Part shown: in pieces, positions 970 to 17,350 of the stretch
Numbering within the stretch: the stretch's first letter is position 1
Layout: every line of letters begins with the position of its first letter
Assembly: GCA_050015075.1 (NCBI GenBank)
Contig: JBEKCB010000025.1
Location: 1-64,000, forward strand
DNA length: 64,000 bases
Origin: Candidatus Brocadiia bacterium
GTDB lineage: Bacteria; Planctomycetota; Brocadiia; CAIUPP01
Direction of reading: 5' to 3'
Program-made: the position numbers and the translations under genes
The notes under the pieces: model-generated
Told to the model about the DNA's origin: nothing
Databases searched by the model: none
The model's input: only the letters and a program-made list of their open reading frames with translations

Positions 970-2310
970 TTAACTAGCGGCTGGAGGCGTACTTATGTCC
1001 GGCGCGGGACAGATTCTGAGCAGCACTTCTCGCGGCAGCGTCGCCGCCAGGACCAGCACCTCGCACACGAGCCGGCGCATCAGCATGCAGCGGCCGGCGT
1101 GCGGCTGGGCCACGGCGCCGCAGAACTCCAGGCTTTCGCTCCGGCACGCGCCACCGCAGACGTGCCGCGCCCAGCACAGGCTGCATTCCTTCCTCGAGCA
1201 GAACCGGTTATCGAGCCACTGCCCGCGCAGCACCTCGTCAATCACCACCTGCGGCCAGGCGATGCCGATGTGCGAGTTCTGCTGCTTGTGGCAAGCGTAG
1301 ATCAGCCCGGTCGGCCCGACGCTGTAATACCCGCGCCCCGCGCCGCATTCGCTCGGCCGGAACTCCTGCCACAGGATGCGCCGGAGCGTCTTCTCGAGGT
1401 ACTGCCAGCGCGGCGGGGCGCCCGACCGCGCGCGCGCGCCGAACCAGTTGCACGCGCTGCGGATTTCGGCGTCGAGCGTATGTCCGTATGCGGCGCCGGC
1501 GACTGGTTCGAGCGCGACGCCGGCGGCGAGTCCCTGATCGCACAGTTCGTTGAGCGCGCCGAGCCGCGCGAGGACGTCCGCCGGCATTCCACTCCAGGTC
1601 CCGCGCAGGACGATCCGTCCGGAGCATCCGGCGCGATGGAGCCGGCTCAGCCCGCGCCGCATCGCCGCGTAACTGCCAGTGCCGCGCGCCTCGTCGTGCA
1701 GTCTGGGCGTCCCGTCGCAACTGACGATGATCGAGAACCCATGCTTGGCCAGGAACCGCGCCACGATCGGCGTCACCAGCGTCGCGTTCGTGGTGACGTG
1801 GAACACGGCGCGGCGTTTATCCATCTCGGCGAGTCGCTGCGCCATTTCAGTAATCGTCGAGAGCATCCCGAAGTGCATCAGCGGCTCGCCGCCGAAAAAC
1901 CCGATCCGCAGGTCGCGGCCGTCGCCAGGGAACATTCTCAGCGCGGCGGAGGCGATGTCGCGGGTCATCACCGGCGGCTCGGCGTCATCCTTGGCAATCC
2001 AGCAGTATTTGCACCGCAGGTTGCACTGATCGGAGAGATGGAGCGTGAGCTGCCGGCAGGACACATCCGGGCTGAGATCGAACTTCGGCCGCCGCTTCGA
2101 GAACAGCAGCCCCGCAGCAAAGCCCTCTGGGACCGCACGCTGAAGGGCCAGCGCCTGGTGCTGCGCCTTCGAGATCTCGACCGCGACCAGCGTGTTCGCG
2201 TCGAACGCGATGACGCTGTCCTCGCCCACCGTGACGTAATGCACGTCCGGCGCGCAAAGCTCCGTCGCGCCGCGTGGCCGCACCTGCAGATTGAGAATGT
2301 GCGGCGTCAT
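970..2310 (-). CDS. Radical SAM/SPASM protein, ranthipeptide (SCIFF/CteB)-maturase-like
   Basis: CNLRCKYC, FFGGEPL, TTNATL and SPASM motifs CGAG...IYACH...CSLCWARHVCGGAC; short N-terminal RRE-like beta segment; ATGA overlap with the upstream gene places the start at 2310. Confidence 0.85.
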   Translation of the reverse strand: MTPHILNLQVRPRGATELCAPDVHYVTVGEDSVIAFDANTLVAVEISKAQHQALALQRAVPEGFAAGLLFSKRRPKFDLSPDVSCRQLTLHLSDQCNLRCKYCWIAKDDAEPPVMTRDIASAALRMFPGDGRDLRIGFFGGEPLMHFGMLSTITEMAQRLAEMDKRRAVFHVTTNATLVTPIVARFLAKHGFSIIVSCDGTPRLHDEARGTGSYAAMRRGLSRLHRAGCSGRIVLRGTWSGMPADVLARLGALNELCDQGLAAGVALEPVAGAAYGHTLDAEIRSACNWFGARARSGAPPRWQYLEKTLRRILWQEFRPSECGAGRGYYSVGPTGLIYACHKQQNSHIGIAWPQVVIDEVLRGQWLDNRFCSRKECSLCWARHVCGGACRSESLEFCGAVAQPHAGRCMLMRRLVCEVLVLAATLPREVLLRICPAPDISTPPAAS

Positions 2311-3095
2311 GCCGTCCTCATCCTTCCCATACACTCCCATTCCTCCCACGTCCGTTTCGGATCGTACTCGACCACGTTCCACGGCTGGACCATCCACGGC
2401 TGCGGCTTGAAAGTGTAGCGCGCGCGCCAGGCGGCCGGCGTGGCGACGTACAGATGCCGCTTCGGCCAGGGCGAGACGATGCCGCGCCCGACGTAGTCCT
2501 CGCCGGGATAGTTGAACCCGCGCTTCGCGTCGAACTTCATTCCCGGCCGCCAGACCGCGAGCGTGACCTGCGGCCTGTGATACTTCGCATGGATCGAGGC
2601 GTCGCGGATGACGTGATCGCCGTCGCCGACGCAGACGAGCACCGGGAACTCCACACAGAGCGCGGGCTTTTTCACCGCAGAGGCGCGGAGGTCGCTGAGA
2701 ACGGCGGCTTTTGCATTATCAGGAACGCCGTCCTCTGCGTTCTCCGCGCCTCCGCGGTCCATCAAAGCAATGATCTCCTCGATGTTCGGCGGCAGCAGCT
2801 CGTCGGCGTCGGGAAAGAGCACCATCTCCGGCCGCGCCTTGTCCATCAGCGCGAACAGCCGCGCGTGCAGCTCGTGCCCGACCGCGATCGCGTTGGCGGC
2901 GTTGTAGGGAATATCCACGCGGGCGACCTCTGCGAGTTTCGGACAGAGCTGGACGTTGCACATCACTTCCCGCGGCGGTTCGCCGTTGACGAGAATGAAC
3001 AGCGCATCCACGTGCCGCGCCAGGTCGGAGATGATCTGCTCCGCAAACTGCGCCTGCACGCCCTGGTGAATCGTCATCGCGCCGGCGAGTCTCAT
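2307..3095 (-). CDS. Putative GT-A fold glycosyltransferase
   Basis: VLFPDADE DxD motif; operon context; contains an in-frame palindromic insert at about 2673-2758. Confidence 0.55.
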   Translation of the reverse strand: MRLAGAMTIHQGVQAQFAEQIISDLARHVDALFILVNGEPPREVMCNVQLCPKLAEVARVDIPYNAANAIAVGHELHARLFALMDKARPEMVLFPDADELLPPNIEEIIALMDRGGAENAEDGVPDNAKAAVLSDLRASAVKKPALCVEFPVLVCVGDGDHVIRDASIHAKYHRPQVTLAVWRPGMKFDAKRGFNYPGEDYVGRGIVSPWPKRHLYVATPAAWRARYTFKPQPWMVQPWNVVEYDPKRTWEEWECMGRMRTA

Positions 3096-3118
3096 CGCTT
3101 CTCCCTCAATCCAGGCTT

Positions 3119-3197
3119 AACCACGGAATACACGGAACACACGGAAGCTGTTTTTCTCCGTCCCTTCATTTCCGTGTTTTCCGTGTATTCCGTGGTT
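3119..3197. repeat. Intergenic palindromic element (AACCACGGAATACACGGAA...TTCCGTGTATTCCGTGGTT)
   Basis: 19-bp perfect inverted arms built from ~9-bp subrepeats. Confidence 0.75.
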
Positions 3198-3201
3198 GAC
3201 A

Positions 3202-4089
3202 TCAGTCGTTTCCGTCACAGTAGCGCGCGAGCAGTTGATGCAGTTCCAGCGCCTCGTACTCGCTTAATCCGGACCGGCAGTGCGCGAGCAGATCACGGTA
3301 GCGCGGGCGGATGTCGGCCGGCGTCAGCGGCGTCTTGCCGTCGCCCGGATCGGTCTGTAGCTTTCGCCACGCCGCGTCGCGCTGCGCCAGCGTCGCATCC
3401 CAGGTCTCGCGCGGCGAGGAGCCCAGCGGCGCGCTCGCATGCGTGAAGTCGCCGCGCCAGCTATAAATGTAACTCGCGCGCGCACCGACCTCCGTCGTCG
3501 CCAGCCCGAACTCACCGAGCGCGTCGAGCAGCTTCCGGTGTTCGTTGCCGCTGGCAGTTCCATAACCATGGTGCTTCACGAAGCCGCGCGCGAGAATCAT
3601 TGAGGCTTCGTAATTGTTCACGTTCAGTTTGTACTCGCCGGTTGCCGTGAAGTGAATCCACGATCGCGCCGGCTTCCAGCCGAAAGGAATGGTGGAATGC
3701 ACGTCAATCCGATCGTAGCCCTTAGCGAGATCCTCGCCCCTCCTTGCTGCGGCTAACTGCTGCACTGCCTGCGAAAGATGCCACGGCAACCAGGCGTCGT
3801 CATCATCCCACGTGTGCACGAACTCGAACTCGTCGCCGACCTTCCCGAGAAGCCGGTTTCGCGGGATGCCCGGCTCGTCGCTCGGCTCGTTGAAGACCGT
3901 CACATCAGGCAGCTCGCAGCGAAGCGGCACGGGATGATTGTTGAGGATGAACAGCCGCTTCGCCGGATAATCCTGCGCCAGGAAAAACGCCAGGCATTCC
4001 CGCATCCGCTGGAAGCGGCCGTACGTGCAGGTCAGGCACGCGACCAGAGGAAGTGCAGACTGCGGACTGCGGACTGCGGGATCGGTCAT
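3202..4089 (-). CDS. Glycosyltransferase family 2
   Basis: VACLTCTYGR...FLAQDYP...RN...TWDDDDAWLPWHL; ATGA overlap places the start at 4089. Confidence 0.85.
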   Translation of the reverse strand: MTDPAVRSPQSALPLVACLTCTYGRFQRMRECLAFFLAQDYPAKRLFILNNHPVPLRCELPDVTVFNEPSDEPGIPRNRLLGKVGDEFEFVHTWDDDDAWLPWHLSQAVQQLAAARRGEDLAKGYDRIDVHSTIPFGWKPARSWIHFTATGEYKLNVNNYEASMILARGFVKHHGYGTASGNEHRKLLDALGEFGLATTEVGARASYIYSWRGDFTHASAPLGSSPRETWDATLAQRDAAWRKLQTDPGDGKTPLTPADIRPRYRDLLAHCRSGLSEYEALELHQLLARYCDGND

Positions 4090-6101
4090 GGCTTCTCCAT
4101 CCTCCATTTCGCCGCGACGGCGGGATCGTGCGTGTGCTCGTAGGTCAGCGCCGGATCGGTCGGCGTCCACCAATTGGCTTTGCCCTCGAAGCTCTGTCGG
4201 CACGGCAGCGGCAGCCAGAGCTTCGTGAGGCCGAGGCGCTCGATCTTCGCCGTCCAGATGCGCTCGAGGACCGCGCCGGCGCCGAGCGGCGCGACCTCGG
4301 AATCCTCCGGCCAGGTGCGCGCGAGGAAATCCGTCCGCGCGGCGAAGACCTTCGTGACCGTGCATTTGTTGTCGCAGATTCCCGTGACCAGCGCCGCTCC
4401 TTGAGCGGAGGACATCGCGCGCCGCACCATCTCCTGCGCCCAACCCGGACGCGGATGGAACACGTCCGCGCCGATCTTCACGACCCATTCAAATCCACCG
4501 CCGCGGGCCTGCGCAGTGGCGGCGCGGACGGCGCGCCTCTCGCCGACCGGCAGTCCGGGATTGGCGCCGGTTTCGATGACGTTGATGCCGGAGACTTCAG
4601 GCCAGCCGCGAATCGGGCTCGCATCGCCGACGACGCAGAGCGCGATCTCGTCCGCTCCGGAGGCGCGCGCCGATTCCAGGCAGCGGTCGAGAATCTGCCG
4701 CTTCTCCTCCAGCGTCGCCGCGTTGGAGCTCGTGCCGTCATCGGCCGAAATCGTAATCGCCAGAAGAATCTTCTTTCCCTGGTTCAGCGTCTTGTCCTCC
4801 GCGCCCTGGACGCGCGTCTCGCGGTCGGCAGCGATCCGGCGATCCAGCTCGGCGAGCAGTTCGTCGGAGTTCAGCTTGAACCGGCTTTGAGCGTCGGCGC
4901 GGTAGCGGTTAAATTCGTCGGTCTCAACCTGCGCGAGGACGTGCTCGGGGATCGCGCCGTGCGGCCCCTGTCCTGCCGCCAGCCGCGCGCGGTAATCCTC
5001 CCAGTGCGCGTCGTCCAGCACCAGCCGCCACGCGGCCGCGTAGCCGAGCCACGTCCCGTTCTCCATCGTCGTGCCGAACGGCACGCTCACGCCGGTCTTC
5101 GAACCGCGGAAGAGATGCCAGAGCGCGACGCCGTCATGGAACAGGATCGGCACCTGGTGCGCCGCGGCCAGGAGCGCGACGGCGAGTTCCTGCGCGCCGT
5201 GGAAATTCGGCAGCGCCGGCCAGCCGCCGAACCGGTCGAGGACCGTCCTCGGGATCGCGTAGAACGCGCCCATCATCAGCGAGGTCGGCCAGAGCTCGAG
5301 CTTCGGCAGGTCCGGCCGCCGCTTCATCCAGCGTCCGCCGAGCATTCCCTTCTCCGGCACCAGGCACGCGCCGGCGCGCCCGCACGTGAACATGCAGCCG
5401 CCGTACACAATCGCCTGGCGCTCCAGCGCCGCCGCGGCCAGCGTGCGCAGCTTGTGCGGCCGGTCCAGCATCTCCTTGAACTCCGGCCTGACCGGCCCGA
5501 TTTCGGGATACCGCGTCGCGAACCAGCACGCCGTCTCCCAGTCGAGCGCGTTGTGCGCGTCGAGGAAGATCACCACGTCGCCGCTCGCGCGCAGCGCGCC
5601 GAGCCGCCGCGATCGCGGACCGCCGATCCGCGTCGGATTGCGGATGGCCGAGACCGGCTCCGGGACGGTCGAGCCGTCGTCCACCACAATGATCTCGGCG
5701 TCCGGACAATCGTGCTTGACGCTGGCGACGGTCGCGACGAGGTTCTCGCGCTCGTTGAGGCTGGAGATCACAACGGAAATAGACGATGGACGAGAGACGA
5801 TGGACGATTGCACGGCAGCCGATGGCATCTGCGCCGCCTTCATCTCGACCAGCATCTTCTCCTTGCACGGCGCGCAGTTCGTCAGATCCTTCCGGCCTTC
5901 GAAAATGTCCGCGCCGGCCCATTTCTTTTTCGGGCAGTTCGAGTCCGGGCCGCCCATGAACGCGTGGTCCATCACCAGCCACTTCGCGGAGTCCGTCCCC
6001 GGCGCGGCGCAGAGCTTGCGGTGGATTCCCGTCGCCGGGTTCATGCTCTGCTGGTGCTCGAACTCGCATCGGACGCAGATTTGTGCTCGGCTTGGGTTCA
6101 T
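4086..6101 (-). CDS. Multidomain glycosyltransferase: Cys-rich N-terminus, GT2/GT27 (ppGalNAc-T)-like domain, second GT-like domain
   Basis: ISVVISSLNE, IIVVDDGS, RRLGALRASGDVVIFLDAH (DxH), MGAFYAIPR..LDRFGGW, WHLFR; start at 6101 just after the tail-tip gene stop. Confidence 0.8.
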   Translation of the reverse strand: MNPSRAQICVRCEFEHQQSMNPATGIHRKLCAAPGTDSAKWLVMDHAFMGGPDSNCPKKKWAGADIFEGRKDLTNCAPCKEKMLVEMKAAQMPSAAVQSSIVSRPSSISVVISSLNERENLVATVASVKHDCPDAEIIVVDDGSTVPEPVSAIRNPTRIGGPRSRRLGALRASGDVVIFLDAHNALDWETACWFATRYPEIGPVRPEFKEMLDRPHKLRTLAAAALERQAIVYGGCMFTCGRAGACLVPEKGMLGGRWMKRRPDLPKLELWPTSLMMGAFYAIPRTVLDRFGGWPALPNFHGAQELAVALLAAAHQVPILFHDGVALWHLFRGSKTGVSVPFGTTMENGTWLGYAAAWRLVLDDAHWEDYRARLAAGQGPHGAIPEHVLAQVETDEFNRYRADAQSRFKLNSDELLAELDRRIAADRETRVQGAEDKTLNQGKKILLAITISADDGTSSNAATLEEKRQILDRCLESARASGADEIALCVVGDASPIRGWPEVSGINVIETGANPGLPVGERRAVRAATAQARGGGFEWVVKIGADVFHPRPGWAQEMVRRAMSSAQGAALVTGICDNKCTVTKVFAARTDFLARTWPEDSEVAPLGAGAVLERIWTAKIERLGLTKLWLPLPCRQSFEGKANWWTPTDPALTYEHTHDPAVAAKWRMEKP

Positions 6102-6103
6102 GT

Positions 6104-9082: not shown

Positions 9083-9088
9083 TTATCC

Positions 9089-9403
9089 TCACCCCGCCAC
9101 AACGGTTGGAGCAGGACTCTGACCATTGCAGCCAATGAACGTCCACGATCCCACGATGTTGCTCAGAGCGGTTCCGGTCGTAGAGGCCTCATAGAGCGGC
9201 TTCTGATCCGTCAATGTGTTGTCAATCACCCACCTTCCTGACGTGGAATTGTAGTGAAGGTAGATGCCGTTGCTGTTCATCCAGTAGTTCTGGCCATCGT
9301 GAGTCCCGGACTGCCGAGCATAGTTGCCATCTACGTTGGCATTAGCTGATCCGGCGCCTGAAGCGGTGTAGGCGAAGAAGGTTCTGTTGTATCCCACGAT
9401 CAT
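9089..9403 (-). CDS. Small beta-rich tail-associated protein
   Basis: ATGA-coupled to the fibre gene; visibly lower GC than neighbours. Confidence 0.6.
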   Translation of the reverse strand: MIVGYNRTFFAYTASGAGSANANVDGNYARQSGTHDGQNYWMNSNGIYLHYNSTSGRWVIDNTLTDQKPLYEASTTGTALSNIVGSWTFIGCNGQSPAPTVVAG

Positions 9404-11481
9404 GCTCTGACCACCTCCAGGGAAACCGTAACCCTCGTCACCGTGGTCGCGCTGTTCACCTTGAAGGCGATGATGTTGCCGGCGGTGAGGCTCGTGCTCC
9501 AACCGGTCAGCGTCGAGTCCTGGCTCTTCTGCGCGCTCGAGAGCGTCGGCAGGTCGGAGGCCGCGATGGAGGACGTGGTCGGGAATCCCGAATACGTGGA
9601 CGTCTGGACGTCCACGACGATGCTCCCCGACTGGTCCGCCAGCAGCGTCACGCGCTGAATCGTGCAATTGAACGGGATTTCCAGGAATCCCTTCACGCCC
9701 GTCGTGATCGCCGAGCCGCCGCCGTCAATCACGAACTCGATCGCATCCGGAAGGGCCAGCACGTCGTCGCCGCCGGTCAGGTGCGTGCTCTCGTGCGCGG
9801 TCGGCGTCCTCGCGTTGGTCAGCCTCGAATCGGACGATGCCACGATTCCGCCGTGTGCCGTCGTCGTCAAGCCGGCATGCGTGTTCAGGTTGCCCTGCAC
9901 CGTCGCCGCCGCGCCGGCCGCATCGCTCGCGGCTTCAGCCGCGCTTTCCGCAGTCGAGATCGCCGAGCCAAGCGCCGTCCGGACCGCCTTCTCGCTCGGC
10001 ACGTTGCTGTCGCTTCCCGGCGAGCCGACAGTAATGACGAGCGCGCTCGCCGCAATGCTCGCCGCCTCGGCCGCAGACTGCGCCGATGCCGCCGCGCCCG
10101 CCGCGTCGAAGGCGCTGCTGGCCTGGAACGCCGCGGTCCCGAGCGCGCCGCCGTCCTCGAGGGCCTTGCCGGTCGCGTCGGCGAACAGTACGACGTGCCC
10201 GGCCATTGACGAGTCCGGTCCGGTGACATCGCCCGATCCCAAGCCGGAAACGGAGTCCGCGATCGCCGTCCGCACCGCCTTCTCGCTCGGCACGTTGCTG
10301 TCGCTTCCCGGCGAGCCGACAGTAGTAACCAAGTCGGCAATCGGAATGCTCGCCGCCTCGGCCGCAGACTGCGCCGCAGCCGCCGCACCGGAGGCGTCCG
10401 CCCCGACATCGCTCGGACCCAGCGTCACCGCGCCGACTTTGCCGCAGACGCTCGAGACGACCTGCTGGTTGTCTATCCGGTTCCAGGACGCGCCGTTATA
10501 AGTCAACCAGTCGCCCGCGCCGTACGTCGTGCCGCTGATCGTGCCCGCGGCCGAGCAGACCCAATACTGGCCTTTCGCCGGCGATGCCGGATACGAGCCG
10601 CCGGAGCAGTCGAAAGTTCCCTGATAATCCAGCGCGCCGACAATGGCCGCCGGGAGCTGGCTCGTCGGCACCTTGCCGCTCGCATCCAGCGTGGCAACGC
10701 CGCTGTCCGCGCCGGCAGATGTCAGCGGGATGCTCGCCGCCTCCGCCGCGGCCTGGGCCGCAGCCGCCGCGCCGGCGACATCCGCGCCGATGCTCGCCGG
10801 ACTGATCGGATCGGAACCGGTGGATGCGTGCGTCGAGGCGTGCGCGGTCGGCGTCCGGGCGTTGGTGAGCCTCGAATCCGTCGCAGCCACGATCCCGCCG
10901 TGCGCCGTCGTCGTCAGGTCCGCGTGCGCGAGCAGATCGTCTTCAAGCGCGTACTCCGGCGGCGAGGTCGGCGGCGAGGTCGGGCCTGAAGTGCCCGCCT
11001 CGGTCGGCGAACTCGTCGCCCTGCCCGTCGCCGACGAAGTGGAGGCCGATCCGCTGGAAAGGTGCAGCTTGATCGTCAGTTCGTAGAATCCGCCGGAGCG
11101 CACGGTGGTCGCCACCGTGTCGCCGCCGGTGACGAAGCTGCCGGTGGAAGCCGCCTCGTCGGCGACGGTGACCGGAGCGAGCGTCGCGCTGAGGAAATAC
11201 GCCGCCCATGCGACGTTTCGCTCGTCGGTGAACGTGAACTCGTTCAGCGTGCCCTGCGCCTGGTTCTTGAAGAAACTCTGAACGTCGTTCAATTCGCTCA
11301 GGCGCAGGTTCGACCACTTCAACTCGCGCCGCGTGTCCGTCGCGTCCGCCAGCGCGAAGCGGTAGAACCCGCCGCTCGCCTTCGGCTGCACGACCTGGTG
11401 CGGATCGAGATCGAGCTGGTCGTTCAGGTCCGGGTTCTGGACCGTCGCCGTCACGCCGCCGAGAGAAAAGGAAACGCTCAT
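9400..11481 (-). CDS. Distal tail (Dit)-like domain fused to a tail-fibre-like protein
   Basis: N-terminal ...VQSFFKNQAQGTLNEFTFTD; internal duplications (TTTAHGGIVA..DSRLTNARTPTAH x2, GSPGSDSNVPSEKAVRTA x2); GVATLDASGKVP fibre motif. Confidence 0.65.
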   Translation of the reverse strand: MSVSFSLGGVTATVQNPDLNDQLDLDPHQVVQPKASGGFYRFALADATDTRRELKWSNLRLSELNDVQSFFKNQAQGTLNEFTFTDERNVAWAAYFLSATLAPVTVADEAASTGSFVTGGDTVATTVRSGGFYELTIKLHLSSGSASTSSATGRATSSPTEAGTSGPTSPPTSPPEYALEDDLLAHADLTTTAHGGIVAATDSRLTNARTPTAHASTHASTGSDPISPASIGADVAGAAAAAQAAAEAASIPLTSAGADSGVATLDASGKVPTSQLPAAIVGALDYQGTFDCSGGSYPASPAKGQYWVCSAAGTISGTTYGAGDWLTYNGASWNRIDNQQVVSSVCGKVGAVTLGPSDVGADASGAAAAAQSAAEAASIPIADLVTTVGSPGSDSNVPSEKAVRTAIADSVSGLGSGDVTGPDSSMAGHVVLFADATGKALEDGGALGTAAFQASSAFDAAGAAASAQSAAEAASIAASALVITVGSPGSDSNVPSEKAVRTALGSAISTAESAAEAASDAAGAAATVQGNLNTHAGLTTTAHGGIVASSDSRLTNARTPTAHESTHLTGGDDVLALPDAIEFVIDGGGSAITTGVKGFLEIPFNCTIQRVTLLADQSGSIVVDVQTSTYSGFPTTSSIAASDLPTLSSAQKSQDSTLTGWSTSLTAGNIIAFKVNSATTVTRVTVSLEVVRA

Positions 11482-11614
11482 TTAATTATTCCTGTAACCT
11501 CCGATGGACGCCGATGAATGCAGATAAGGCAAACGACCGAGTAATAATCCGTATCTGCGTTCATCACGCGCGCAGTACACTGCGCGCTCTGGGTCCCTCG
11601 GCGGTTAAAAAATA

Positions 11615-12166
11615 TTAAGCTGCCGTGGTCTGTTCCGAACTCGGCTCGTTCGTCGGGTTCGCCGAAGTCCGCTTGGCGACGGTCGGGCGCTCCTCGAAGT
11701 CCTTGAAGGCGACCGCCAGGATGTCGGCGTCGGCTTTTTCGGAGAACGTTTCGTTCAGTTCGTAGCACTTCTCGAAGACGATATCCTCGGCCTGCTCGCC
11801 GGTGATCGGCGAGACGCACGTGAACCGGATGCGGACGGTCCGCACGCCGCCGTCGTTGCTGGTCGAAAGCCAGGAACTCGCCGCGCCGACGCCGAACAGC
11901 GCCTCGTGCGGCGTGACCGGATAGCCCGTCGCGCTGAGGAATTCCTTGAACTTCACCTGGAACTTGCCGCTGCACGGCCTGGCCTTGCCGGCCCGGAGCG
12001 AGCTGAGATCCGTCCGGTCCATGATGGCGACGGACTCGCGCTGGGCCACGTCGAAGCACATGTCGCCTTCGTCCACGACGAGCTGGACGGCGTTGGCCGG
12101 GCTCGACCCGTCCTCGATGGTGATGATCCCATCGGCCATGTTCTTTACCACCGTCTGCTTCGCCAC
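11615..12166 (-). CDS. Putative tail tube protein
   Basis: Size (~183 aa), position, beta-rich sequence; GGAGGTGA RBS before GTG at 12166; ends ...SSEQTTAA. Confidence 0.55.
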   Translation of the reverse strand: MAKQTVVKNMADGIITIEDGSSPANAVQLVVDEGDMCFDVAQRESVAIMDRTDLSSLRAGKARPCSGKFQVKFKEFLSATGYPVTPHEALFGVGAASSWLSTSNDGGVRTVRIRFTCVSPITGEQAEDIVFEKCYELNETFSEKADADILAVAFKDFEERPTVAKRTSANPTNEPSSEQTTAA

Positions 12167-12233
12167 AACTCTCACCTCCAAAAAACGTTTTCACCACTAC
12201 GACCCGACGCGCGCGACGTACGGATTTACCAAC

Positions 12234-12545
12234 CTAGTCTTGCGTCGTGGGTTCGTCAGTCGTGGAGCCGTTCGTCGTGTCCGTAGTGGTGAGTTCCGGC
12301 GTCGTCGCGGCGGCCGGCGTGTTGGCCGAGACGGAGGCGACCAGCGCGGCCTTGTTCGTCGCCATCTGGTTCGCCAGCGACTGGATCTGGGCCTGCAGCG
12401 CCGCGACCGACTGGGCCGGCTGAGAGGCGACCGTCTGGAGCTGCGCGGTGAGCTGGTCGAGGAGCGCTTCGGCGCTCGCATCCACCGTCGTCTCGGCCGC
12501 CACAGCCTGAATGATCGGGGTAAGATCAATGCTGACCGTTGCCAT
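12234..12545 (-). CDS. Small coiled-coil phage protein with a Thr-rich tail
   Basis: AAGGAG RBS; Ala/Gln helix, then TTPELTTTDTTNGSTTDEPTTQD. Confidence 0.65.
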   Translation of the reverse strand: MATVSIDLTPIIQAVAAETTVDASAEALLDQLTAQLQTVASQPAQSVAALQAQIQSLANQMATNKAALVASVSANTPAAATTPELTTTDTTNGSTTDEPTTQD

Positions 12546-12717
12546 AGCACCAACTCCTTCCATCAAAAAGAGGATCCGTTCCACCTTCCTTCGGTCACTG
12601 CGCTTGAACACGGTACGCTCCGCGACGATGGACTATGGACGATAGACCACGCGCGGCAATCGTCCATCGTCTATCGTCCATCGTCTGCCTCCATCGTTTC
12701 TCGTCCATCGTCGCCGC

Positions 12718-12933
12718 TCACTTCGGCGCCGCCGGCGGCGAAGCGGGCGGCACAGCCGCCTTCGGCTTGAACAGCGCGATCAGCCCGACCAGCTTCGCCC
12801 AGATCCACGAGATGATGGCGCCGATCTTCGCCAGGACGTGGTCCGCGAGCACCTGGTGCAGCGCGGCGAGGATCCCGAGCACGACGCTGCTCAGCACGCA
12901 GCCGAGCAGGAACGCCACGATCAGTTGCAGCAT
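12718..12933 (-). CDS. Small membrane protein (holin-like)
   Basis: GGAGG RBS before ATG at 12933; two hydrophobic segments in 71 aa. Confidence 0.55.
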   Translation of the reverse strand: MLQLIVAFLLGCVLSSVVLGILAALHQVLADHVLAKIGAIISWIWAKLVGLIALFKPKAAVPPASPPAAPK

Positions 12934-12989
12934 CGTCGGCCTCCATTTCACAGGACGATTGACCATGGACGATGGACGATCGTCAGTGG

Positions 12990-13500
12990 CTAAAACTGCG
13001 CCTTTTGCGTCAGCACCAGCAGCGGCGCTCCGAGCATCAGGCCCAGAAGAATCACGCACACGATCAGGTCCGACCACCAGTTCAGGTCCAGCTTCCCCAG
13101 CAGGACGATAAGGAGCACACCCAAGCATTCGCAGCCGCCAACTGTCAGAAACTTCAGCCAGCCAGGACTCAAACCGAAACTGCACCTGCGTCAGAGACGC
13201 AATGCTTCCTTTCACCTGGTCGCGGAACTGGTCGGTGTCCTGCGAGGACTTCTGGATCGCATTGATGATCGCCGTGTTCTGCTGCGCGAGCGAGAGGACC
13301 TGCGCCTGGACGTCCTTGAGCGTCGAGGCGGTGGTCGAGTCCGGAGCGACCGTCTGCGCCGCCTTCTGCGCCGGCGCGGACGAACAGCCGACGGCCAAGA
13401 TCACCGCAGAGGCGCAGAGGACGCCGAGAGCGGCGAAACGCCTCAAGGCCTGATTGCCAGAACTTTCCGTCTCCGCGTTCTCCGCGTCTCTGCGGTGCAT
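12990..13500 (-). pseudogene. Lipoprotein/coiled-coil/transmembrane protein with an apparent frameshift near 13177
   Basis: Lipobox ILAVGC and coiled coil; removing one T from CAGTTTCGGTTTG joins it to the 2-TM ORF 12990-13172. Confidence 0.5.
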
Positions 13501-13512
13501 CGCCGCCTCCTT

Positions 13513-13989
13513 TCAAGAAATCCTGAACTTGCAGACCATCGTCGTCGTGAACTGCCAGAGTTCGATGTGCTTCTGCAGGGCGATCTTCGGCGCGTAGGAC
13601 GGGTTCGCGTACTCCGCCTCGGCGAACGTCGCCCCGAGGCCGAAATTGTCCGCCTGGAACTGCCGGCTCATGAAGTCCTCGAAGCCTTCGGCGAGGTCCA
13701 CGATACGGCGCGAGTCCTCGCCGGCGGTCGCCATCTCGATCAGGAACGCGGTCCGGCGCTCGAGTACGGCCGCCGGGCCGCGCTTGCACTTCGCCGGCGG
13801 CCAGTGATGCAAGTCCTCCGCCGGCCCCATCGCGAAGACCGGGCAGACCGCTGGCATGATCTCCATGCGCGTCAACACGCCCTGGCCGTTGAACCGGAAC
13901 ATCGTTCCGCCCTTCAGCAGCGCGGACATCGCGGAGTCGGCCTGCAGGCGGCTCCAGACGGCGTTCAAGACATCGGTCGAAAGGCCCAT
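13513..13989 (-). CDS. Tail completion/terminator-like protein
   Basis: AVWSRLQADSAMSALL N-terminus; lies between the gp36-like gene and the tail genes. Confidence 0.55.
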   Translation of the reverse strand: MGLSTDVLNAVWSRLQADSAMSALLKGGTMFRFNGQGVLTRMEIMPAVCPVFAMGPAEDLHHWPPAKCKRGPAAVLERRTAFLIEMATAGEDSRRIVDLAEGFEDFMSRQFQADNFGLGATFAEAEYANPSYAPKIALQKHIELWQFTTTMVCKFRIS

Positions 13990-14030
13990 CAGAATCTCTC
14001 CCAAAGCCGAGTGCGAATCCGGTGCGGCAT

Positions 14031-14456
14031 TCAAAAACCACGAGTCTGGCGGCGCGTGAACTGCCGCCGGCGGCCGGAGGCCTTTGCGCCGTGGAAGCGG
14101 TCGCCGCGGTCGTCGGCCTTCGGCTCGCCGAGCGACGCCTGGCCCTGGCCGACTTGCTCCAGGAACGCCACGTCGCGGTCATAACCGTTCTTCACCTCGT
14201 CGGGCAGCGACTGCCGGCCGAGGTACAGGTAGTACAGCGCCAGGCGGACGGCGATGCTCAGCAGCATCGGCGGCACGGTCGCCAGCGGCAGCGGATACTG
14301 CGGCGAGATCAAGCCGTCAATCAGCGACGACGCCTGGTCGCACGCGGCCTGCAGGACCGTGTTGTTCGGCGAGCCGGTCCCGCCCAGGTCGCTGAGTTGC
14401 GTCAGTTCGGCGGTGGTCTTGACGTTCGCCAAGTCAGTCGGAGCGCAATAGCTCAT
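14031..14456 (-). CDS. Mu gp36-like head-tail connector (DUF1320)
   Basis: MSYC..DL...EL.QL, ASSLIDG...YPLPL..VP..L...A..LALYYLY, Y...FLEQV..G..SLG pattern. Confidence 0.85.
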   Translation of the reverse strand: MSYCAPTDLANVKTTAELTQLSDLGGTGSPNNTVLQAACDQASSLIDGLISPQYPLPLATVPPMLLSIAVRLALYYLYLGRQSLPDEVKNGYDRDVAFLEQVGQGQASLGEPKADDRGDRFHGAKASGRRRQFTRRQTRGF

Positions 14457-14539
14457 CGGTTACTCCATTGCGGATTTCGGAATGCGGACTGCGGAATTCA
14501 ATCCGCAATCCGCACTCCGCACTCTGCACTCTGCACTCG

Positions 14540-15481
14540 TTACGCCGCGGTCGTCGGGGCGCCGGAAGTGCCCTGCGAGCCGTAGGCGAGCCACCACGCG
14601 ATGGCCTTCACTGCGCCGCGGTAATCCATGCCGAAGTCGAAGCGCTTCTGGTAGAAAACGTTCGGGTCGTCGAGCTTCACCATCGGCGTCAGCGCCAGCG
14701 GCCGGCGCACCTGGTTGACCACCGGCTTGATCGGCTTCGAGCAGTCCAGCATCATCCACTGGTTGCCGGTCCACATCGGCATCTTGATCTGGTTCTCTTT
14801 CGGGAACTTCCCGTAGAGCGTCTGGCTGATCTGGCTGGAGTTGGCCAGCGGCACGTTGAAGAGCTGGTCCACGGCCTGCTCCAGCGCCGGCGAGAACAGG
14901 AAGTGCGTCGGCTGGACCAGGAGCACGATGCCGTCCGGTCCGACGAAGGTGCTCATCTGCTTGATGCCCGCGTAGACCGCCGCGGCCGAGAGGTATGCCG
15001 TCGTCAGGTTCGACTGCGGAGCGCCGGCGGCGCCTTTCATCCCCTGCCAGACGTGCGAGCTGGAGAAGAACGGCACGCCGTCGAAACCGACCGACTCGGC
15101 GAAGGCGCCGACGCCGAGTTCGTCCTGCACCTGCAGCCACGGCTCGAGCACGCCGAGCGCGGCCTGCTGCTGGATCGCCAGCGCGTATGCCCCCGTCACG
15201 TCGTCCTCGATGTCCTCGCGCGGCACGCCGATCGTGTGCTCGAAGGTCAGGTTGCGGACGCTCGCCTCGAACGCGGCCAGGTCCTGGATCACGCGGTCCT
15301 TCACCCACTCGCGCATGCGTCCGGTCAGCGCGGCGACCGGGTAGTGCTCGATGCGCGTGGACGACGGCACCGCCGAGGCGATGTCGTCAATCCGGGTCTT
15401 CGTGCGCTCGAGCGTCTGCTGAAAAATGGTGTTGAACGACACCCACAACGCCTCCAGCGTTGCGGCATTGACTACTGCCAT
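14540..15481 (-). CDS. Mu-like major capsid protein (gpT family)
   Basis: VPSST..EHY...MREWV.DR, FEHTIGVPREDIEDD..G.Y, FDGVPFFS..H, W.MLD.SKPIKP, W.LAYGS; AGGAG RBS. Confidence 0.92.
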   Translation of the reverse strand: MAVVNAATLEALWVSFNTIFQQTLERTKTRIDDIASAVPSSTRIEHYPVAALTGRMREWVKDRVIQDLAAFEASVRNLTFEHTIGVPREDIEDDVTGAYALAIQQQAALGVLEPWLQVQDELGVGAFAESVGFDGVPFFSSSHVWQGMKGAAGAPQSNLTTAYLSAAAVYAGIKQMSTFVGPDGIVLLVQPTHFLFSPALEQAVDQLFNVPLANSSQISQTLYGKFPKENQIKMPMWTGNQWMMLDCSKPIKPVVNQVRRPLALTPMVKLDDPNVFYQKRFDFGMDYRGAVKAIAWWLAYGSQGTSGAPTTAA

Positions 15482-15571
15482 TGCGTCATCTCCTAAAAAA
15501 ATTCCTGTGCTACACAATCGGCAATCGGCATTCCTGTCGCGCAAGCGCGACACGGGCAATCTGCAATTCCG

Positions 15572-16024
15572 TTAGGCCGCCGTCGTCGGCGCACTGGTCA
15601 CCGGCAGCGCCGGCTCGACGTACGCGCCGCGCATGTCCACCAGCACTCCGTATCGGTCCACCGACTTGATGCGGCCCGCATACGTGTTCGTGCCGGCGGT
15701 CAGCGTCACGGTGTGATCGTCGGCGAAGTACGCCGGCTGGCCGACGCTCGCCTGCGTCAGCGTCGCGGCCGAATCCCAGTACGCGGCCTCCGGCGTGATG
15801 ATCTCCACGGTCTCAGCGCCGGCCGCGCCGGCGGAATTGTCCACCGTCTCGTCGGCGATGCCGCGGAAATGCCTCACGCCCGGGCCGGCCGGAACCGCAA
15901 AGCCGCCCGAGTTCAGCCCCACCGCGGCGCCGTTGAAGATCTGCGTCGCGGCGGCCACGGGCGCCTCGTCGCGGTGCAGCTCGTCCACGAACTCCGTGTC
16001 CCGATCCGACGTCAAGTTGCTCAT
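15572..16024 (-). CDS. Capsid cement/decoration protein
   Basis: PVAAAT.IF.GA.V...G.AVP, GIADETVDN..GAAG, VGQPAYFADDHTV; lies between protease and capsid. Confidence 0.8.
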   Translation of the reverse strand: MSNLTSDRDTEFVDELHRDEAPVAAATQIFNGAAVGLNSGGFAVPAGPGVRHFRGIADETVDNSAGAAGAETVEIITPEAAYWDSAATLTQASVGQPAYFADDHTVTLTAGTNTYAGRIKSVDRYGVLVDMRGAYVEPALPVTSAPTTAA

Positions 16025-16075
16025 GCGACTGCTCCTAAAAAAGAGACCATTGACCATAGACGACAGACGATGTCC

Positions 16076-17350
16076 TTACCCAACCATCCGCCGCTTCGTC
16101 GCCAGGAACTCCGCCTCCTTCAGCCCCGCCTGCTCGCAGGCCCAGCGGTCGGCGTCGGAGAGGACCGGCGTCTCGGCGGCGGCCTGGGCGCCGGCGGCGC
16201 TCGTCGCGCCTCCGAGCACCGGCGGCATGCTGTTGAGGATTTCCCGTGCGCCCTCGAAGTCCTGCATCGCCAGCCGGATGAACGCCTCCCGGTTCGCCGG
16301 GGTGATCTTCCGCTCGACGGAGATCGCGTTCTCGATGAGCTTCTCGGCCGCCGACTGCGCCGGCATCGCCCGGCTCGCGCCGATCAGCGCCAGCAGCTCG
16401 GCCAGCGGCCTGTCCGGCGTCGCGCCGAGCGCGTTGCAGATCGAGAGCAGCTTCACATCCGCATCGCTCGTAGAGGCGCCGTCAGGCGCTACTTTGAGCT
16501 TGTCGAGTGCCGCCTTGATCGCGGCCTCGTCGGCCGTCTCCGCCACGCCGAGCGAGCTGGCGAAGACCTTCACCTGGATGGACGCGCGCGTGCCGGCGTC
16601 CATCAGGGTCATGAGCGCTCTGCCGATTACGTCCGCCTTGGCGTCTTCCGCGACGCCCAGGCTGTTGGCGACGGTCTTCGCGTCAAGCGCGGGAGCGCCT
16701 GCGCGCCCCTCGTTCATGGCCGCCGCCAGCAAGGCGAGCAAATTCTGCATGGCTCCGCCCTCCTCTTCTGCGACGGCTGAATCGGGAGCGCCGGTGCGCT
16801 CCTCTGCCAATCCGGCGGCGGCGGCGTCGCTGTTCGCCACGGCCGGAAGCGCCTTCTTGAACGGACGGTTCGTCAGCGCCACGGAATCGAGCACCCACCG
16901 GATGATCCGGCCGGTGACCGGGTCCTTGTAATCCTTCAGCAGGTGCGAGCTGAGGTAGCGGAATTTCCTCTCGCGGATCAGCGCGCGCGCGTCGGCCACC
17001 CACTTGATGTGCGCCCACAGTTCGGTATCGTTGTTCCGCCCTTCGAGGGAATTGATCCAGCCGCCGGACTCGGCGCTCTTGCCGAGCAGCTTGGCGACCA
17101 CGCCCTGATGCTCGTAGTCCACCGGCAGGTCCACGCCGTTCGCGCGGCAGGCCTGGTTGAAGTACTCGACGATGCAGCGGATGTCCGCCGGCGTCAACCG
17201 GTACGCGCCGGCCGGGTGGCCTTCCCACTCGCCTTGCAAATCCACCTGGTACCAGCCTTCGGCCGGGACGCCGTTCGGCCCTGAGCTCACGTCCGAAGGG
17301 TCGGCGGGAAGCGCACCGGCGGAGTTGCTGAGCTGTTCCCGGTTTTCCAT
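16076..17350 (-). CDS. Mu-like prohead protease/scaffold (gpI)
   Basis: LPVDYEH, GWI..LE, LWAHIKW, RYLS, SVALTNRP motifs; helical scaffold C-terminus. Confidence 0.9.
   Translation of the reverse strand: MENREQLSNSAGALPADPSDVSSGPNGVPAEGWYQVDLQGEWEGHPAGAYRLTPADIRCIVEYFNQACRANGVDLPVDYEHQGVVAKLLGKSAESGGWINSLEGRNNDTELWAHIKWVADARALIRERKFRYLSSHLLKDYKDPVTGRIIRWVLDSVALTNRPFKKALPAVANSDAAAAGLAEERTGAPDSAVAEEEGGAMQNLLALLAAAMNEGRAGAPALDAKTVANSLGVAEDAKADVIGRALMTLMDAGTRASIQVKVFASSLGVAETADEAAIKAALDKLKVAPDGASTSDADVKLLSICNALGATPDRPLAELLALIGASRAMPAQSAAEKLIENAISVERKITPANREAFIRLAMQDFEGAREILNSMPPVLGGATSAAGAQAAAETPVLSDADRWACEQAGLKEAEFLATKRRMVG

What the first reader, a model, noticed from the sequence alone, without database searches (positions are those of the whole stretch)
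970..16024. Candidate new system: a phage-derived particle that O-glycosylates and thioether-cross-links its own virion proteins
Seen: the structural operon continues directly into a modification cassette (GT 4086-6101, GT 3202-4089, GT-like 2307-3095, radical SAM/SPASM 970-2310), with two ATGA overlaps. Both candidate substrate classes are written into the structural genes: Ser/Thr/Pro tails and a six-Cys SCIFF-like motif. Known: some mycobacteriophages O-glycosylate the C-termini of capsid and tail tube proteins, and SCIFF maturases install Cys-to-carbon thioethers on short peptides. Inference: both chemistries are applied to one Mu-like virion, a combination I do not know to be described.
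Basis: partly seen in the sequence, partly recalled or inferred. Interest (0 to 1): 0.93.

Follow-up and report, generated by a model that had tools for sequence, protein, structure and literature searches.

The report
Phage tail operon with protein-modifying enzymes
A phage-like gene cluster in a planctomycete genome ends in three sugar-adding enzymes and a radical enzyme that probably decorate and cross-link the particle's own proteins, which would be a new way for a virus to finish its coat, but no modification has been shown yet.

Summary
On the minus strand a late operon runs from portal to tail tip and, without a break, into GT671 (4086-6101), GT295 (3202-4089), g262 (2307-3095) and a radical SAM/SPASM enzyme (970-2310), with ATGA overlaps at 4086-4089 and 2307-2310.

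- **Enzyme.** It is CteB/PapB-like.
- **Tails.** Capsid, decoration protein and p188 (a possible tail tube) all end in TTAA (P about 5e-10).
- **Cys motif.** The 992-aa tail hub carries CX11CX2CX3CX3CX3C at aa 740-767. Its only HMM hit is SCIFF, below the cut-offs.
- **Conservation.** The gene order recurs in a Candidatus Brocadiia MAG under purifying selection.

- Only the head is Mu-like. The tail tip resembles siphophage and GTA hubs.
- The Cys motif is an old feature of a large hub family. It is usually expanded into long C-[E/Q]-x-x arrays. I could link it to the rSAM only in the window's own clade.
- Metal or Fe-S binding, known in tail tips, is a live rival.
- No modification is demonstrated.

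Verdict: a real and interesting candidate, and a new variant of known kinds.

The parts
22134..22217 (-). Promoter-like array 1: five AAGCGCACTSA sites (spacing 21, 21, 10, 21), then CCTTATAAT at 22093-22101. It marks the right edge of the element.
   Evidence: 14 matches in the window against 2.48 expected
21595..22080 (-). First gene after array 1 (ATG 22080, 161 aa). It has a C-terminal membrane segment and a weak XhlA/'hemolysin' PHROG hit.
   Evidence: (phrog_937, E 0.005)
21120..21644 (-). DUF1804 DNA-binding protein, a candidate small terminase
   Evidence: PF08822, E 2.1e-5, below cut-off; phrog_4151, E 1e-9
19047..20732 (-). Large terminase, with an in-frame REP-like palindrome at 19968-20066
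   Evidence: (phrog_38, E 6.6e-54)
18885..18968 (-). Promoter-like array 2, an 85% identical copy of array 1, with CCTTATAAT at 18844-18852, ahead of the portal gene
17353..18813 (-). Mu-type portal
   Evidence: PF06074, E 3.9e-82
16076..17350 (-). Mu gpI-type head protease/scaffold
   Evidence: (PF10123, E 4.7e-35)
15572..16057 (-). Head decoration/virion protein (likely start ATG 16024). Its C-terminus ends ...SAPTTAA, beyond the end of the family profile.
   Evidence: (phrog_1731, E 4.9e-34, protein 12-142)
14540..15484 (-). Mu gpT-type major capsid protein. Its C-terminal extension ends ...GAPTTAA.
   Evidence: (PF10124, E 6.5e-49); phage homologues align only to residue 301-307 of 314
14031..14456 (-). 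Mu gp36-type head-tail adaptor
   Evidence: (PF07030, E 2e-27)
13513..14034 (-). p173, unknown structural-module protein
   Evidence: 92% to L001; no family hit
12718..13389 (-). p260, a membrane protein with up to three hydrophobic segments. Its start is uncertain: a REP-like palindrome at 13401-13501 covers the longest ORF's start.
12234..12611 (-). p125, with a Thr-rich C-terminal tail
11615..12181 (-). p188, ending ...EQTTAA. Its identity as tail tube is a lead only.
   Evidence: Atlas: viral clusters at 0.96; Phi812_tail_tube cluster at 0.95
9400..11481 (-). Tail fiber-like protein with a Ser/Thr/Pro linker at aa 162-178
   Evidence: (tail and virion PHROGs)
9089..9400 (-). p103, a small variable protein. 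A related domain forms the C-terminus of hub homologue P0009 (likeness judged by eye from the printed sequences, no alignment run).
   Evidence: 35% to L001
6104..9082 (-). Tail-tip hub / central fiber protein, 992 aa. It has a folded hub (1-737), a low-confidence neck and linker (738-893) and a folded C-terminal beta domain (894-992).
   Evidence: T5 pb3 E 1.5e-18; lambda gpJ; GTA 6tba_8A
6782..6865 (-). Conserved Cys motif CX11CX2CX3CX3CX3C, with E or Q after three of the Cys. This is the candidate rSAM target or metal site.
6404..6742 (-). Thr/Ser/Pro/His tandem-repeat linker of the hub (aa 781-893). This is a candidate O-glycosylation region.
   Evidence: (12-nt period repeats)
4086..6101 (-). 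GT671: an N-terminal domain with six invariant Cys, a GT2 domain, and a second domain with a weak nucleotidyl-transferase-like hit
3202..4089 (-). GT295, a weak GT2-like protein
3119..3197 (.). Hairpin with 28-nt arms (96% complementary) in the only gap of the cassette. It has no T-run.
2307..3095 (-). g262, of unknown family (GT-like by Atlas lead only). It carries an in-frame REP-like insertion at 2670-2763 that L001 lacks.
970..2310 (-). Radical SAM/SPASM enzyme of the CteB/PapB type

Best explanation
The region is the late operon of a phage-like element in a Planctomycetota genome; the nearest relative is in a Candidatus Brocadiia MAG. The element has a Mu-type head and a siphophage/GTA-type tail tip. 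The operon ends in a four-gene cassette that is made together with the virion proteins and acts on them in the cytoplasm before or during assembly.

Inferred step 1 (more likely, about 0.5): GT671, GT295 and perhaps g262 build O-glycans on Thr. The targets would be the shared C-terminal ...PTTAA tails of the capsid, decoration and p188 proteins, and the Thr-rich repeats of hub, fiber and p125.

Inferred step 2 (less likely, about 0.3): the CteB/PapB-like rSAM makes Cys-to-carbon thioethers, probably to the conserved Glu/Gln beside the Cys. The target would be the non-globular neck of the hub (aa 740-767). This would stiffen the joint between the hub and its glycosylated stalk.

Shown: gene order, coupling, enzyme families, motifs, conservation.
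Inferred: both substrates and both chemistries.
For: Coupling and conservation:
- ATGA overlaps, a 2-nt spacing, and no terminator between tail genes and cassette.
- The order from large terminase to rSAM recurs in L001: 17 of 18 window proteins matched. The miss is the EF-hand protein, which lies beyond the contig end.
- Contig-length fingerprints place hub and GT671 together on two more contigs (76030, 8156), and GT671 and rSAM together on two more (42170, 849415).
- P0048 is an in-frame chimera of capsid and rSAM on yet another contig.
- dN/dS is 0.25-0.38 for the four cassette genes. Their dS (0.29-0.57) matches fiber and hub (0.38-0.47), not the head genes (0.11-0.20).

Enzymes:
- None has a membrane segment.
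- rSAM scores: PapB E 1.6e-47, SCIFF maturase 2.4e-37, QhpD 5.6e-34. CteB gives E 2.2e-29 by sequence and TM 0.78 by fold, from a model with pLDDT 93.6.

Substrates:
- The TTAA tails have P about 5e-10. MCP and the decoration protein keep TTAA in L001; p188 there ends TTAE.
- The tails extend beyond the homologous capsid and decoration folds.
- The motif segment's only hit is SCIFF, in both NCBIfam (E 0.0031) and Pfam (E 0.0025).
- The motif is 93% conserved yet sits in a region with pLDDT below 50.
- E or Q follows the Cys in 76-82 of 88 aligned proteins.
- No separate Cys-rich precursor ORF lies in 1-4200.

Precedents:
- Three tandem phage GTs modify capsid and tail tube in mycobacteriophages (passage in PMC11600133 citing Freeman 2023).
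- rSAM-SPASM enzymes cross-link protein substrates: QhpD/QhpC and CrpC/CrpA, the latter with a C-X-X-Q/D motif (PMC13692751, abstract and section 8).
- PapB makes Cys-Asp/Glu links with 0-6 residues between them (PMC9413430, abstract).
Against: - No modification is observed. Everything about substrates is inference.
- The SCIFF hits are below the curated cut-offs (18.1 against 27; 17.4 against 50). They did not appear when the whole hub was scanned at E 0.01.
- The rSAM reaches no named family's cut-off (162 bits against 340 for PapB).
- The Cys motif is present in 88 of 171 hub-family proteins, most under 40% identical. I could place a related rSAM only beside close relatives.
- None of the 14 Cys-repeat or distant hub contig lengths recurs among the 120 rSAM hits listed. 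This is weak, because the lists are incomplete: the window's own GT671 is missing.
- GT671 relatives on four large contigs (251300, 94726, 328413, 393305) have no listed rSAM or hub partner. The same caveat applies.
- Tail-tip proteins are known to bind Fe-S or metal through Cys.
- GT295 and g262 are only weakly or not at all assignable to GT families.
- None of the three GT-like proteins I searched has a relative in 50,697 phage records: GT671 and g262 gave no match. GT295 was not searched there.
- Ser/Thr/Pro linkers also occur in two host proteins of the window.
Confidence: 0.45

Rival explanations
1. The Cys motif, and the long C-[E/Q]-x-x arrays of its relatives, are a structural element of the trimeric central fiber that works without the rSAM. 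It could be a metal-thiolate or Fe-S site, or a disulfide ladder. The rSAM would then have another target: an unseen peptide, a host protein, or another virion protein.
For: - The motif is ancient and widespread: 88 of 171 proteins compared. 51 of 171 carry 5 or more tandem CXXX units.
- rSAM linkage is documented only for the close clade.
- Lambda gpL and RcGTA gp13 bind Fe-S clusters, and the JBD30 upper baseplate protein binds a putative metal ion, each through four Cys (passages in PMC10721106 and PMC11445458).
- The model places C755, C759, C763 and C767 on one helix (754-766), at low confidence. From the i, i+4 spacing I infer that they would share one face.
Against: - The known Fe-S sites lie in the HDII-insertion domain, not after the hub domains. 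Here the motif follows the last hub domain.
- A conserved Glu/Gln after each Cys is what thioether-forming enzymes use: PapB, QhpD and the CrpA motif.
- SCIFF is the only HMM hit for the segment.
- No other Cys-rich candidate ORF lies near the rSAM.
Confidence: 0.3
2. The glycosyltransferases are cargo genes at the end of the tail operon. They would act on a host glycan or another non-virion target, as in lysogenic conversion, or on DNA. The Thr-rich tails and linkers would be plain spacers.
For: - The PHROG hits of GT671 fall in the 'moron, auxiliary metabolic gene and host takeover' category.
- GT671's best NCBIfam hits are small-molecule or polysaccharide GTs, all far below cut-off.
- GT671 and g262 show no similarity to any phage GT in the phage collection.
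- Ser/Thr/Pro linkers occur in host proteins too.
Against: - There is no membrane segment, flippase, polymerase or sugar-nucleotide gene in the cassette.
- The GTs are translationally coupled to late structural genes.
- A spacer role does not explain three abundant virion proteins sharing an identical TTAA C-terminus.
- The cassette shares its divergence level with fiber and hub.
Confidence: 0.2
3. The cassette is ordinary host DNA that merely abuts a prophage remnant, with no functional link.
For: - The element shows no early, lysogeny or replication genes to the right among the 25 further ORFs scanned.
- It is peppered with host-type REP-like palindromes.
Against: - The same order and overlaps recur in L001.
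- Co-location on further contigs and the capsid-rSAM chimera point the same way.
- There is no terminator or promoter between tail and cassette.
- g262's nearest Atlas clusters are viral.
Confidence: 0.05

Closest known systems
Mycobacteriophage virion glycosylation (Freeman et al. 2023, Cell Host Microbe; paper not held, known here only through citing passages in PMC11600133 and PMC12582341)
   Same: Tandem phage-encoded glycosyltransferases. Targets are abundant virion proteins (capsid and tail tube). That the sites are Ser/Thr-rich C-terminal extensions is recalled, not seen in a call.
   Different: There is no sequence similarity to any GT in 50,697 phage records for GT671 or g262. The host phylum is different. 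The GTs sit at the end of the tail operon. The tail is a defined shared TTAA ending. No methyltransferase is present, and an rSAM is attached.
SCIFF peptide with its maturase CteB, and PapB/freyrasin (ranthipeptides)
   Same: The enzyme has the same fold and cluster-binding cysteines as CteB. The target motif has the same CX2CX3CX3CX3C rhythm and weakly hits the SCIFF HMMs. Acidic or amide residues sit beside the Cys, as in PapB substrates.
   Different: The candidate substrate is an internal segment of a 992-aa virion protein, not a peptide of about 45 residues with a leader. The gene lies 3.8 kb from the enzyme gene. All HMM scores are below the family cut-offs.
Protein thioether cross-linking: QhpD/QhpC and CrpC/CrpA (Dieter et al. 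2026, PMC13692751)
   Same: An rSAM-SPASM enzyme acts on a Cys-repeat protein encoded nearby. The motif pairs Cys with Q/D/E a few residues away.
   Different: Those substrates are a small enzyme subunit and a methanogen protein with a leader-like N-terminus. Here the candidate is a phage tail hub, and the paper does not mention phages (0 occurrences).
Fe-S or metal sites of siphophage and GTA tail tips (lambda gpL, RcGTA gp13, JBD30 upper baseplate protein)
   Same: Conserved cysteines in a tail-tip protein of the same structural class.
   Different: Those sites use four Cys in the HDII-insertion domain. This motif has six Cys in a row after the last hub domain, and in relatives it extends to dozens of CXXX units.
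Baseplate hub / central fiber proteins: T5 pb3, lambda gpJ, RcGTA gp15 ('megatron')
   Same: The fold of residues 1-737 matches. PF13550 is found in relatives. The layout is hub, then stalk, then variable C-terminal domain.
   Different: The stalk here is a Thr/Pro/His repeat or, in relatives, a Cys array, rather than FNIII or beta-helical domains. TM-scores are low (0.38-0.40 over the whole chain).

Membership tests
Radical SAM/SPASM thioether-forming maturases (CteB, PapB, QhpD type) | CX3CX2C radical SAM cluster motif | tested here: met
   C96, C100 and C103 are invariant in 41 sequences; PF04055 at E 2.5e-13
Radical SAM/SPASM thioether-forming maturases (CteB, PapB, QhpD type) | SPASM domain with seven Cys for two auxiliary clusters | tested here: met
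   C322, C340, C376, C379, C385, C389 and C408 are invariant; full-length fold match to CteB, TM 0.78/0.79. Pfam's SPASM model itself did not hit at E 0.01.
Radical SAM/SPASM thioether-forming maturases (CteB, PapB, QhpD type) | Score above the curated cut-off of a named equivalog | tested here: not met
   PapB 162 bits against 340; SCIFF maturase 129 against 425; QhpD 118 against 453
Radical SAM/SPASM thioether-forming maturases (CteB, PapB, QhpD type) | N-terminal peptide-recognition (RRE) domain | tested here: inconclusive
   The model has four strands and one helix in residues 16-57. The Foldseek alignment to CteB spans 454 columns, but the domain was not compared on its own.
Radical SAM/SPASM thioether-forming maturases (CteB, PapB, QhpD type) | Forms Cys-to-carbon thioethers in a co-encoded substrate | not testable with these tools
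   Needs mass spectrometry of the co-expressed proteins
SCIFF precursor (PF13165 / TIGR03973) | HMM score above cut-off | tested here: not met
   18.1 bits against 27 (Pfam) and 17.4 against 50 (NCBIfam). It is nevertheless the only hit for the 71-aa segment in each library.
SCIFF precursor (PF13165 / TIGR03973) | Stand-alone peptide of about 45 residues next to its maturase | tested here: not met
   The motif is internal to a 992-aa protein. No small Cys-rich ORF lies in 1-4200.
Phage virion O-glycosylation system (mycobacteriophage type) | Phage-encoded tandem glycosyltransferases | tested here: met
   GT671 is a firm GT2. GT295 is weak. g262 is a lead only. Profile comparison among them found nothing.
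Phage virion O-glycosylation system (mycobacteriophage type) | Ser/Thr-bearing C-terminal extensions on capsid and tail tube subunits | tested here: inconclusive
   Met for capsid and decoration protein. p188 has the tail, but its identity as tail tube is only an Atlas lead.
Phage virion O-glycosylation system (mycobacteriophage type) | Homology of the GTs to the known phage enzymes | tested here: not met
   No tblastn match for GT671 or g262 in the phage collection. GT295 was not searched there.
Phage virion O-glycosylation system (mycobacteriophage type) | Glycan detected on virion proteins | not testable with these tools
   Needs purified particles or co-expression, then MS
Mu-like phage | Mu-type head module (portal, gpI, gpT, gp36) | tested here: met
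   PF06074, PF10123, PF10124 and PF07030 are all above cut-off
Mu-like phage | Transposase and early region upstream of the late genes; contractile tail | tested here: not met
   Host-type genes begin right of 22240. No transposase or integrase is found among the 25 further ORFs scanned. No sheath or tube family was hit. The hub is siphophage-like. The left side lies beyond the window.
Gene transfer agent / domesticated particle | Structural cluster without replication or lysogeny genes, kept by selection in the host | tested here: inconclusive
   For: no early genes on the right; REP-like palindromes inside genes; dN/dS below 0.4; a weak GTA_megatron hit for relative P0023. Open: the left flank is unseen, and packaging behaviour is untestable.
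gpL-type Fe-S tail-tip site | Four conserved Cys in the HDII-insertion domain binding a [4Fe-4S] cluster | tested here: not met
   The motif lies after the last hub domain, at aa 740-767. Metal binding by this different motif is not testable here.

The most novel reading that the evidence does not exclude
A virus-like particle finishes its own coat with two chemistries at once. Glycosyltransferases cap the capsid, decoration and p188 proteins at a shared TTAA C-terminal tag and coat the Thr-rich stalks. A RiPP-type radical SAM enzyme welds Cys to Glu/Gln in the neck of the tail hub. By extension, the C-[E/Q]-x-x arrays in dozens of related hub lineages (up to 49 units in a row and 166 Cys per protein) would be a hitherto unrecognised class of enzymatically cross-linked phage tail stalks.
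Probability: 0.2. Interest if true: 0.9.

Novelty: new variant of a known kind. Interest (0 to 1): 0.7.

Why it matters
Virion glycosylation is documented for mycobacteriophages only (as far as the passages I saw go). Radical-SAM thioether links on full-size proteins have only just been shown, in a methanogen.

A phage structural operon that carries both enzyme sets, with matching motifs written into its own proteins, would extend both fields. It would take RiPP-type chemistry into virus assembly. It would also point to a testable C-terminal glycosylation tag (TTAA).

The Cys-array hub family found on the way is large and unexplained. Even if it binds metal rather than being cross-linked, it is a new feature of phage tails.

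Tried and rejected
- **Complex prediction.** rSAM with hub residues 705-790: no verdict (score 0.01, mark 0.32). This is not evidence either way.
- **Contig-length matching.** Matching across searches gave four positive links. Its negatives are unreliable, because the window's own GT671 is absent.
- **Phage collection.** No match for the hub, P0014, GT671 or g262. The rSAM found only relatives under 33% identical. One annotated example, Phass-1, showed only hypothetical neighbours.
- **Profile comparison.** GT671 family against g262 and GT295: nothing.
- **PADLOC.** Only generic rSAM-core similarity to pVip. I rejected a defence-system reading.
- **Rfam and tRNA scans.** Empty.
- **Small-ORF search.** No separate precursor: only out-of-frame ORFs.
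- **Long rSAM relatives.** P0064, P0070 and P0074 have no added Pfam domain.
- **Literature.** Four searches for an rSAM or thioether acting on a phage virion found nothing relevant. Freeman 2023 is not held. Supplements were not consulted.

Full report
**What is there.**
The window has 61-69% G+C over its first 24 kb. Between about 22240 and 970 it carries one run of minus-strand genes with high third-position G+C.

Family searches identify these genes:
- a DUF1804 DNA-binding protein, a candidate small terminase (21120-21644);
- the large terminase (19047-20732);
- a Mu-type portal (17353-18813, PF06074, E 3.9e-82);
- a Mu gpI protease/scaffold (16076-17350);
- a decoration-type virion protein (15572-16057, phrog_1731);
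- a Mu gpT capsid protein (14540-15484, PF10124, E 6.5e-49);
- a gp36 adaptor (14031-14456).

Four small unassigned proteins follow (p173, p260, p125, p188). Then come a fiber-like protein (9400-11481), a small variable protein (9089-9400) and a 992-aa protein (6104-9082).

An AlphaFold model of the 992-aa protein (70-row alignment, mean pLDDT 81.2) has three parts: a confident block at 1-737, a low-confidence stretch at 738-893, and a confident beta domain at 894-992. Foldseek matches the model to the baseplate hub / central fiber proteins of T5 (pb3, E 1.5e-18), DT57C, lambda (gpJ), Chi, JBD30 and T1, and to the Rhodobacter GTA (6tba_8A). Relatives of the protein carry PF13550.

So the head is Mu-like but the tail tip is of the siphophage/GTA kind. 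No sheath, tube or tape-measure family was hit. p188 is a tail-tube candidate only by an ESM Atlas lead.

**The cassette.**
The stop of the hub gene (6104-6106) is followed two bases later by the start of GT671. GT671/GT295 and g262/rSAM overlap by ATGA.
- GT671 is a firm GT2 (E 1.5e-17). In 12 relatives its N-terminal stretch holds six invariant cysteines.
- GT295 is only weakly GT2-like (E 0.0074, below cut-off).
- g262 has no family hit. Its nearest Atlas clusters are viral, one with GT2 on 34% of members.
- None of the four enzymes has a membrane segment.
- No flippase, polymerase or sugar-nucleotide gene is present.

The rSAM has the CX3CX2C motif and seven invariant SPASM cysteines.
- Its best NCBIfam hits are PapB (E 1.6e-47), the nif11-type maturase, the SCIFF maturase (2.4e-37) and QhpD (5.6e-34). 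All are below their cut-offs.
- Its best solved relative is CteB, by sequence (E 2.2e-29) and by fold (TM 0.78 over the full length, model pLDDT 93.6).

**The candidate substrates.**
The capsid, decoration and p188 proteins all end in TTAA. The tetrapeptide occurs nowhere else in the element's 20 proteins, so P is about 5e-10 by composition. The capsid tail lies beyond where the 15 listed phage capsid homologues stop aligning (residue 301-307 of 314). The decoration tail lies beyond the end of its PHROG profile. Thr/Ser/Pro-rich stretches also occur in the hub (aa 781-893, built from 12-nt-period DNA repeats), in the fiber (aa 162-178) and at the end of p125.

The hub carries CX11CX2CX3CX3CX3C at aa 740-767. 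A 71-aa segment around it has a single hit in NCBIfam (SCIFF, E 0.0031, 17.4 bits, cut-off 50) and a single hit in Pfam (SCIFF, E 0.0025, 18.1 bits, cut-off 27). These are sub-threshold, and they did not appear when the whole protein was scanned at E 0.01.

In the ten close homologues the motif window is 93% identical, against 64% overall and 31% for the linker that follows. Yet it sits where the model is not confident. No small Cys-rich ORF lies within 1-4200.

**Relatives.**
One genome locus was found: L001, on contig JBKQWE010000014.1 of a Candidatus Brocadiia (Planctomycetota) MAG.
- It has the same order from terminase to rSAM. 17 of 18 window proteins matched. The contig ends inside the rSAM, so the EF-hand gene cannot be seen.
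- It has the same ATGA at g262/rSAM and the same TTAA ends on capsid and decoration protein. p188 there ends TTAE.
- dN/dS is 0.06-0.39 for all 16 gene pairs.
- dS is 0.11-0.20 for head genes but 0.29-0.57 for fiber, hub, the GTs and the rSAM. The cassette therefore shares its history with the tail tip.

In the protein collection the hub has 10 close homologues (57-82% identical), all with the motif and a Thr/Pro-rich linker. The rSAM has about 25 relatives at 60% identity or more. Identity then drops to 48% and below, and named SCIFF maturases sit at 25-29%.

Equal contig lengths place genes together as follows:
- hub and GT671 on two further contigs (76030; 8156);
- GT671 and rSAM on two further contigs (42170; 849415).

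P0048 is an in-frame chimera of capsid residues 2-204 and rSAM residues 223-442.

The negatives of this matching are unreliable, because the window's own GT671 is not's list. They are:
- four GT671 contigs without a listed rSAM or hub;
- no rSAM listed for any Cys-array hub contig.

**The wider hub family.**
An exhaustive profile search found 870 representatives at E 0.001 or better, and 91 at 1e-30 or better.
- Of 171 proteins compared, 88 align across the motif. Cys is present at the five core positions in 82, 84, 77, 75 and 88 of those 88. E or Q follows the Cys in 76-82 of the 88.
- In 51 of 171 the motif continues into 5 or more tandem C-x-x-x units. That makes 1379 units in all. Position 2 is E in 59% and Q in 26%. 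The longest run is 49 units, and one protein holds up to 166 Cys.
- 29 relatives that align up to residue 700 lack the motif.

The window's clade has replaced the Cys array with a Thr/Pro/His repeat and kept only its first unit.

This cuts both ways. C-[E/Q] pairs are what PapB, QhpD and CrpC act on, and CXXX repeats are a recognised rSAM target class (family name). But the motif clearly predates this cassette, and I could not see whether the array-bearing elements carry an rSAM.

Cysteines in tail tips are also known to hold Fe-S or metal: lambda gpL, RcGTA gp13 and JBD30 (passages in PMC10721106 and PMC11445458). Those sites, however, lie in a different domain.

**How it most likely works.**
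The cassette is co-transcribed and co-translated with late structural genes from a promoter-like array ahead of the portal gene. The enzymes would therefore be present in the cytoplasm while virion proteins accumulate.

I judge it most likely (0.45 overall) that they act on those proteins:
- glycosylation of the TTAA tails and Thr-rich stalks, about 0.5;
- thioether formation at the hub neck, about 0.3.

The rivals are:
- a metal or disulfide role for the motif, with another rSAM target (0.3);
- cargo glycosyltransferases aimed at a host glycan or at DNA (0.2);
- mere adjacency (0.05).

**Prophage or domesticated particle?**
This is undecided.
- To the right of the element, host-type genes follow at once: GFO/IDH/MocA oxidoreductases, a PEP-CTERM protein, a BlaR1-type protease and others. 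None of the 25 ORFs scanned there is a phage early gene.
- REP-like palindromes lie inside the element, two of them in frame within genes.
- All genes are under purifying selection.
- Against a firm conclusion, the window ends 970 nt beyond the rSAM, and L001 ends earlier still.

**Literature.**
- Virion glycosylation by three tandem phage GTs is cited for mycobacteriophages (passage in PMC11600133; listed in PMC12582341). The original paper is not held.
- Protein-scale thioether cross-links by an rSAM-SPASM enzyme were reported in 2026 for CrpC/CrpA (PMC13692751; abstract, section 8 and passages read). That paper has 0 occurrences of 'phage'.
- Four full-text searches for an rSAM or thioether acting on phage virion or tail proteins returned nothing relevant. 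The two papers I opened from them concern metabolic rSAM genes of cyanophages and marine viruses.
- Supplementary files were not consulted.

**Verdict.**
I rate the finding a new variant of known kinds, of high but unproven interest.

Noticed in passing
Relatives of window 6104-9082 (P0011-P0023, P0163-P0201 and others): A large family of tail hub proteins carries long tandem C-[E/Q]-x-x arrays right after the conserved motif. 51 of 171 proteins compared have 5 or more units, runs reach 49 units, and one protein has up to 166 Cys. I found no description of this in four literature searches.
   Followed up: partly
window 2670-2763, 19968-20066, 13401-13501; also 3119-3197, 12624-12697, 16045-16071, 5770-5811: REP-like palindromic elements lie inside the phage-like cluster. 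One sits in frame inside g262 and is absent from L001. One sits in frame inside the large terminase, adding about 33 residues. This recalls in-frame palindromic insertions known from other bacteria (recalled).
   Followed up: partly
window 18835-18991 and 22084-22240: Two 85% identical copies of a 157-nt region. Each has five AAGCGCACTSA sites at helical-phase spacing (21, 21, 10, 21) followed by CCTTATAAT. One lies ahead of the packaging genes and one ahead of the portal gene. They look like binding arrays for a regulator that is not encoded in the visible part of the element.
   Followed up: partly
P0048 (protein from another contig): An in-frame fusion of the N-terminal two thirds of a Mu gpT capsid protein (74% identical) to the C-terminal half of the rSAM (89% identical). 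It is a deletion derivative or an assembly chimera that removes all tail and GT genes.
   Followed up: partly
window 295-795 (minus strand): A 166-aa EF-hand calcium-binding protein with Ser/Thr-rich stretches and one internal TTAA. It lies 175 nt downstream of the rSAM and is followed by palindromes. It is unclear whether it is the last gene of the element or a host gene.
   Followed up: no
window 4086-6101, residues 1-80 of GT671: Six cysteines (C9, C12, C31, C56, C76, C79) are invariant in 12 relatives ahead of the GT2 domain. They may form a zinc-binding module, perhaps for recognising the protein substrate.
   Followed up: no
window 9089-9400 and hub homologue P0009: By eye, the small protein p103 resembles the C-terminal domain that replaces the usual hub C-terminus in P0009. 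It is only 35% identical between the window and L001. This looks like shuffling of a receptor-binding module.
   Followed up: no
window 21595-22080: The first gene after the right-hand promoter array encodes a 161-aa protein with a C-terminal membrane segment and a weak XhlA-type ('hemolysin') PHROG hit (E 0.005). It is a possible lysis component.
   Followed up: no
P0045, P0046, P0050, P0051, P0158, P0159: Several relatives of the rSAM and GT671 on large contigs are shortened. P0045 reads out of register with the query in its middle part, as a frameshift would give. This suggests decaying copies of the cassette in other genomes.
   Followed up: no
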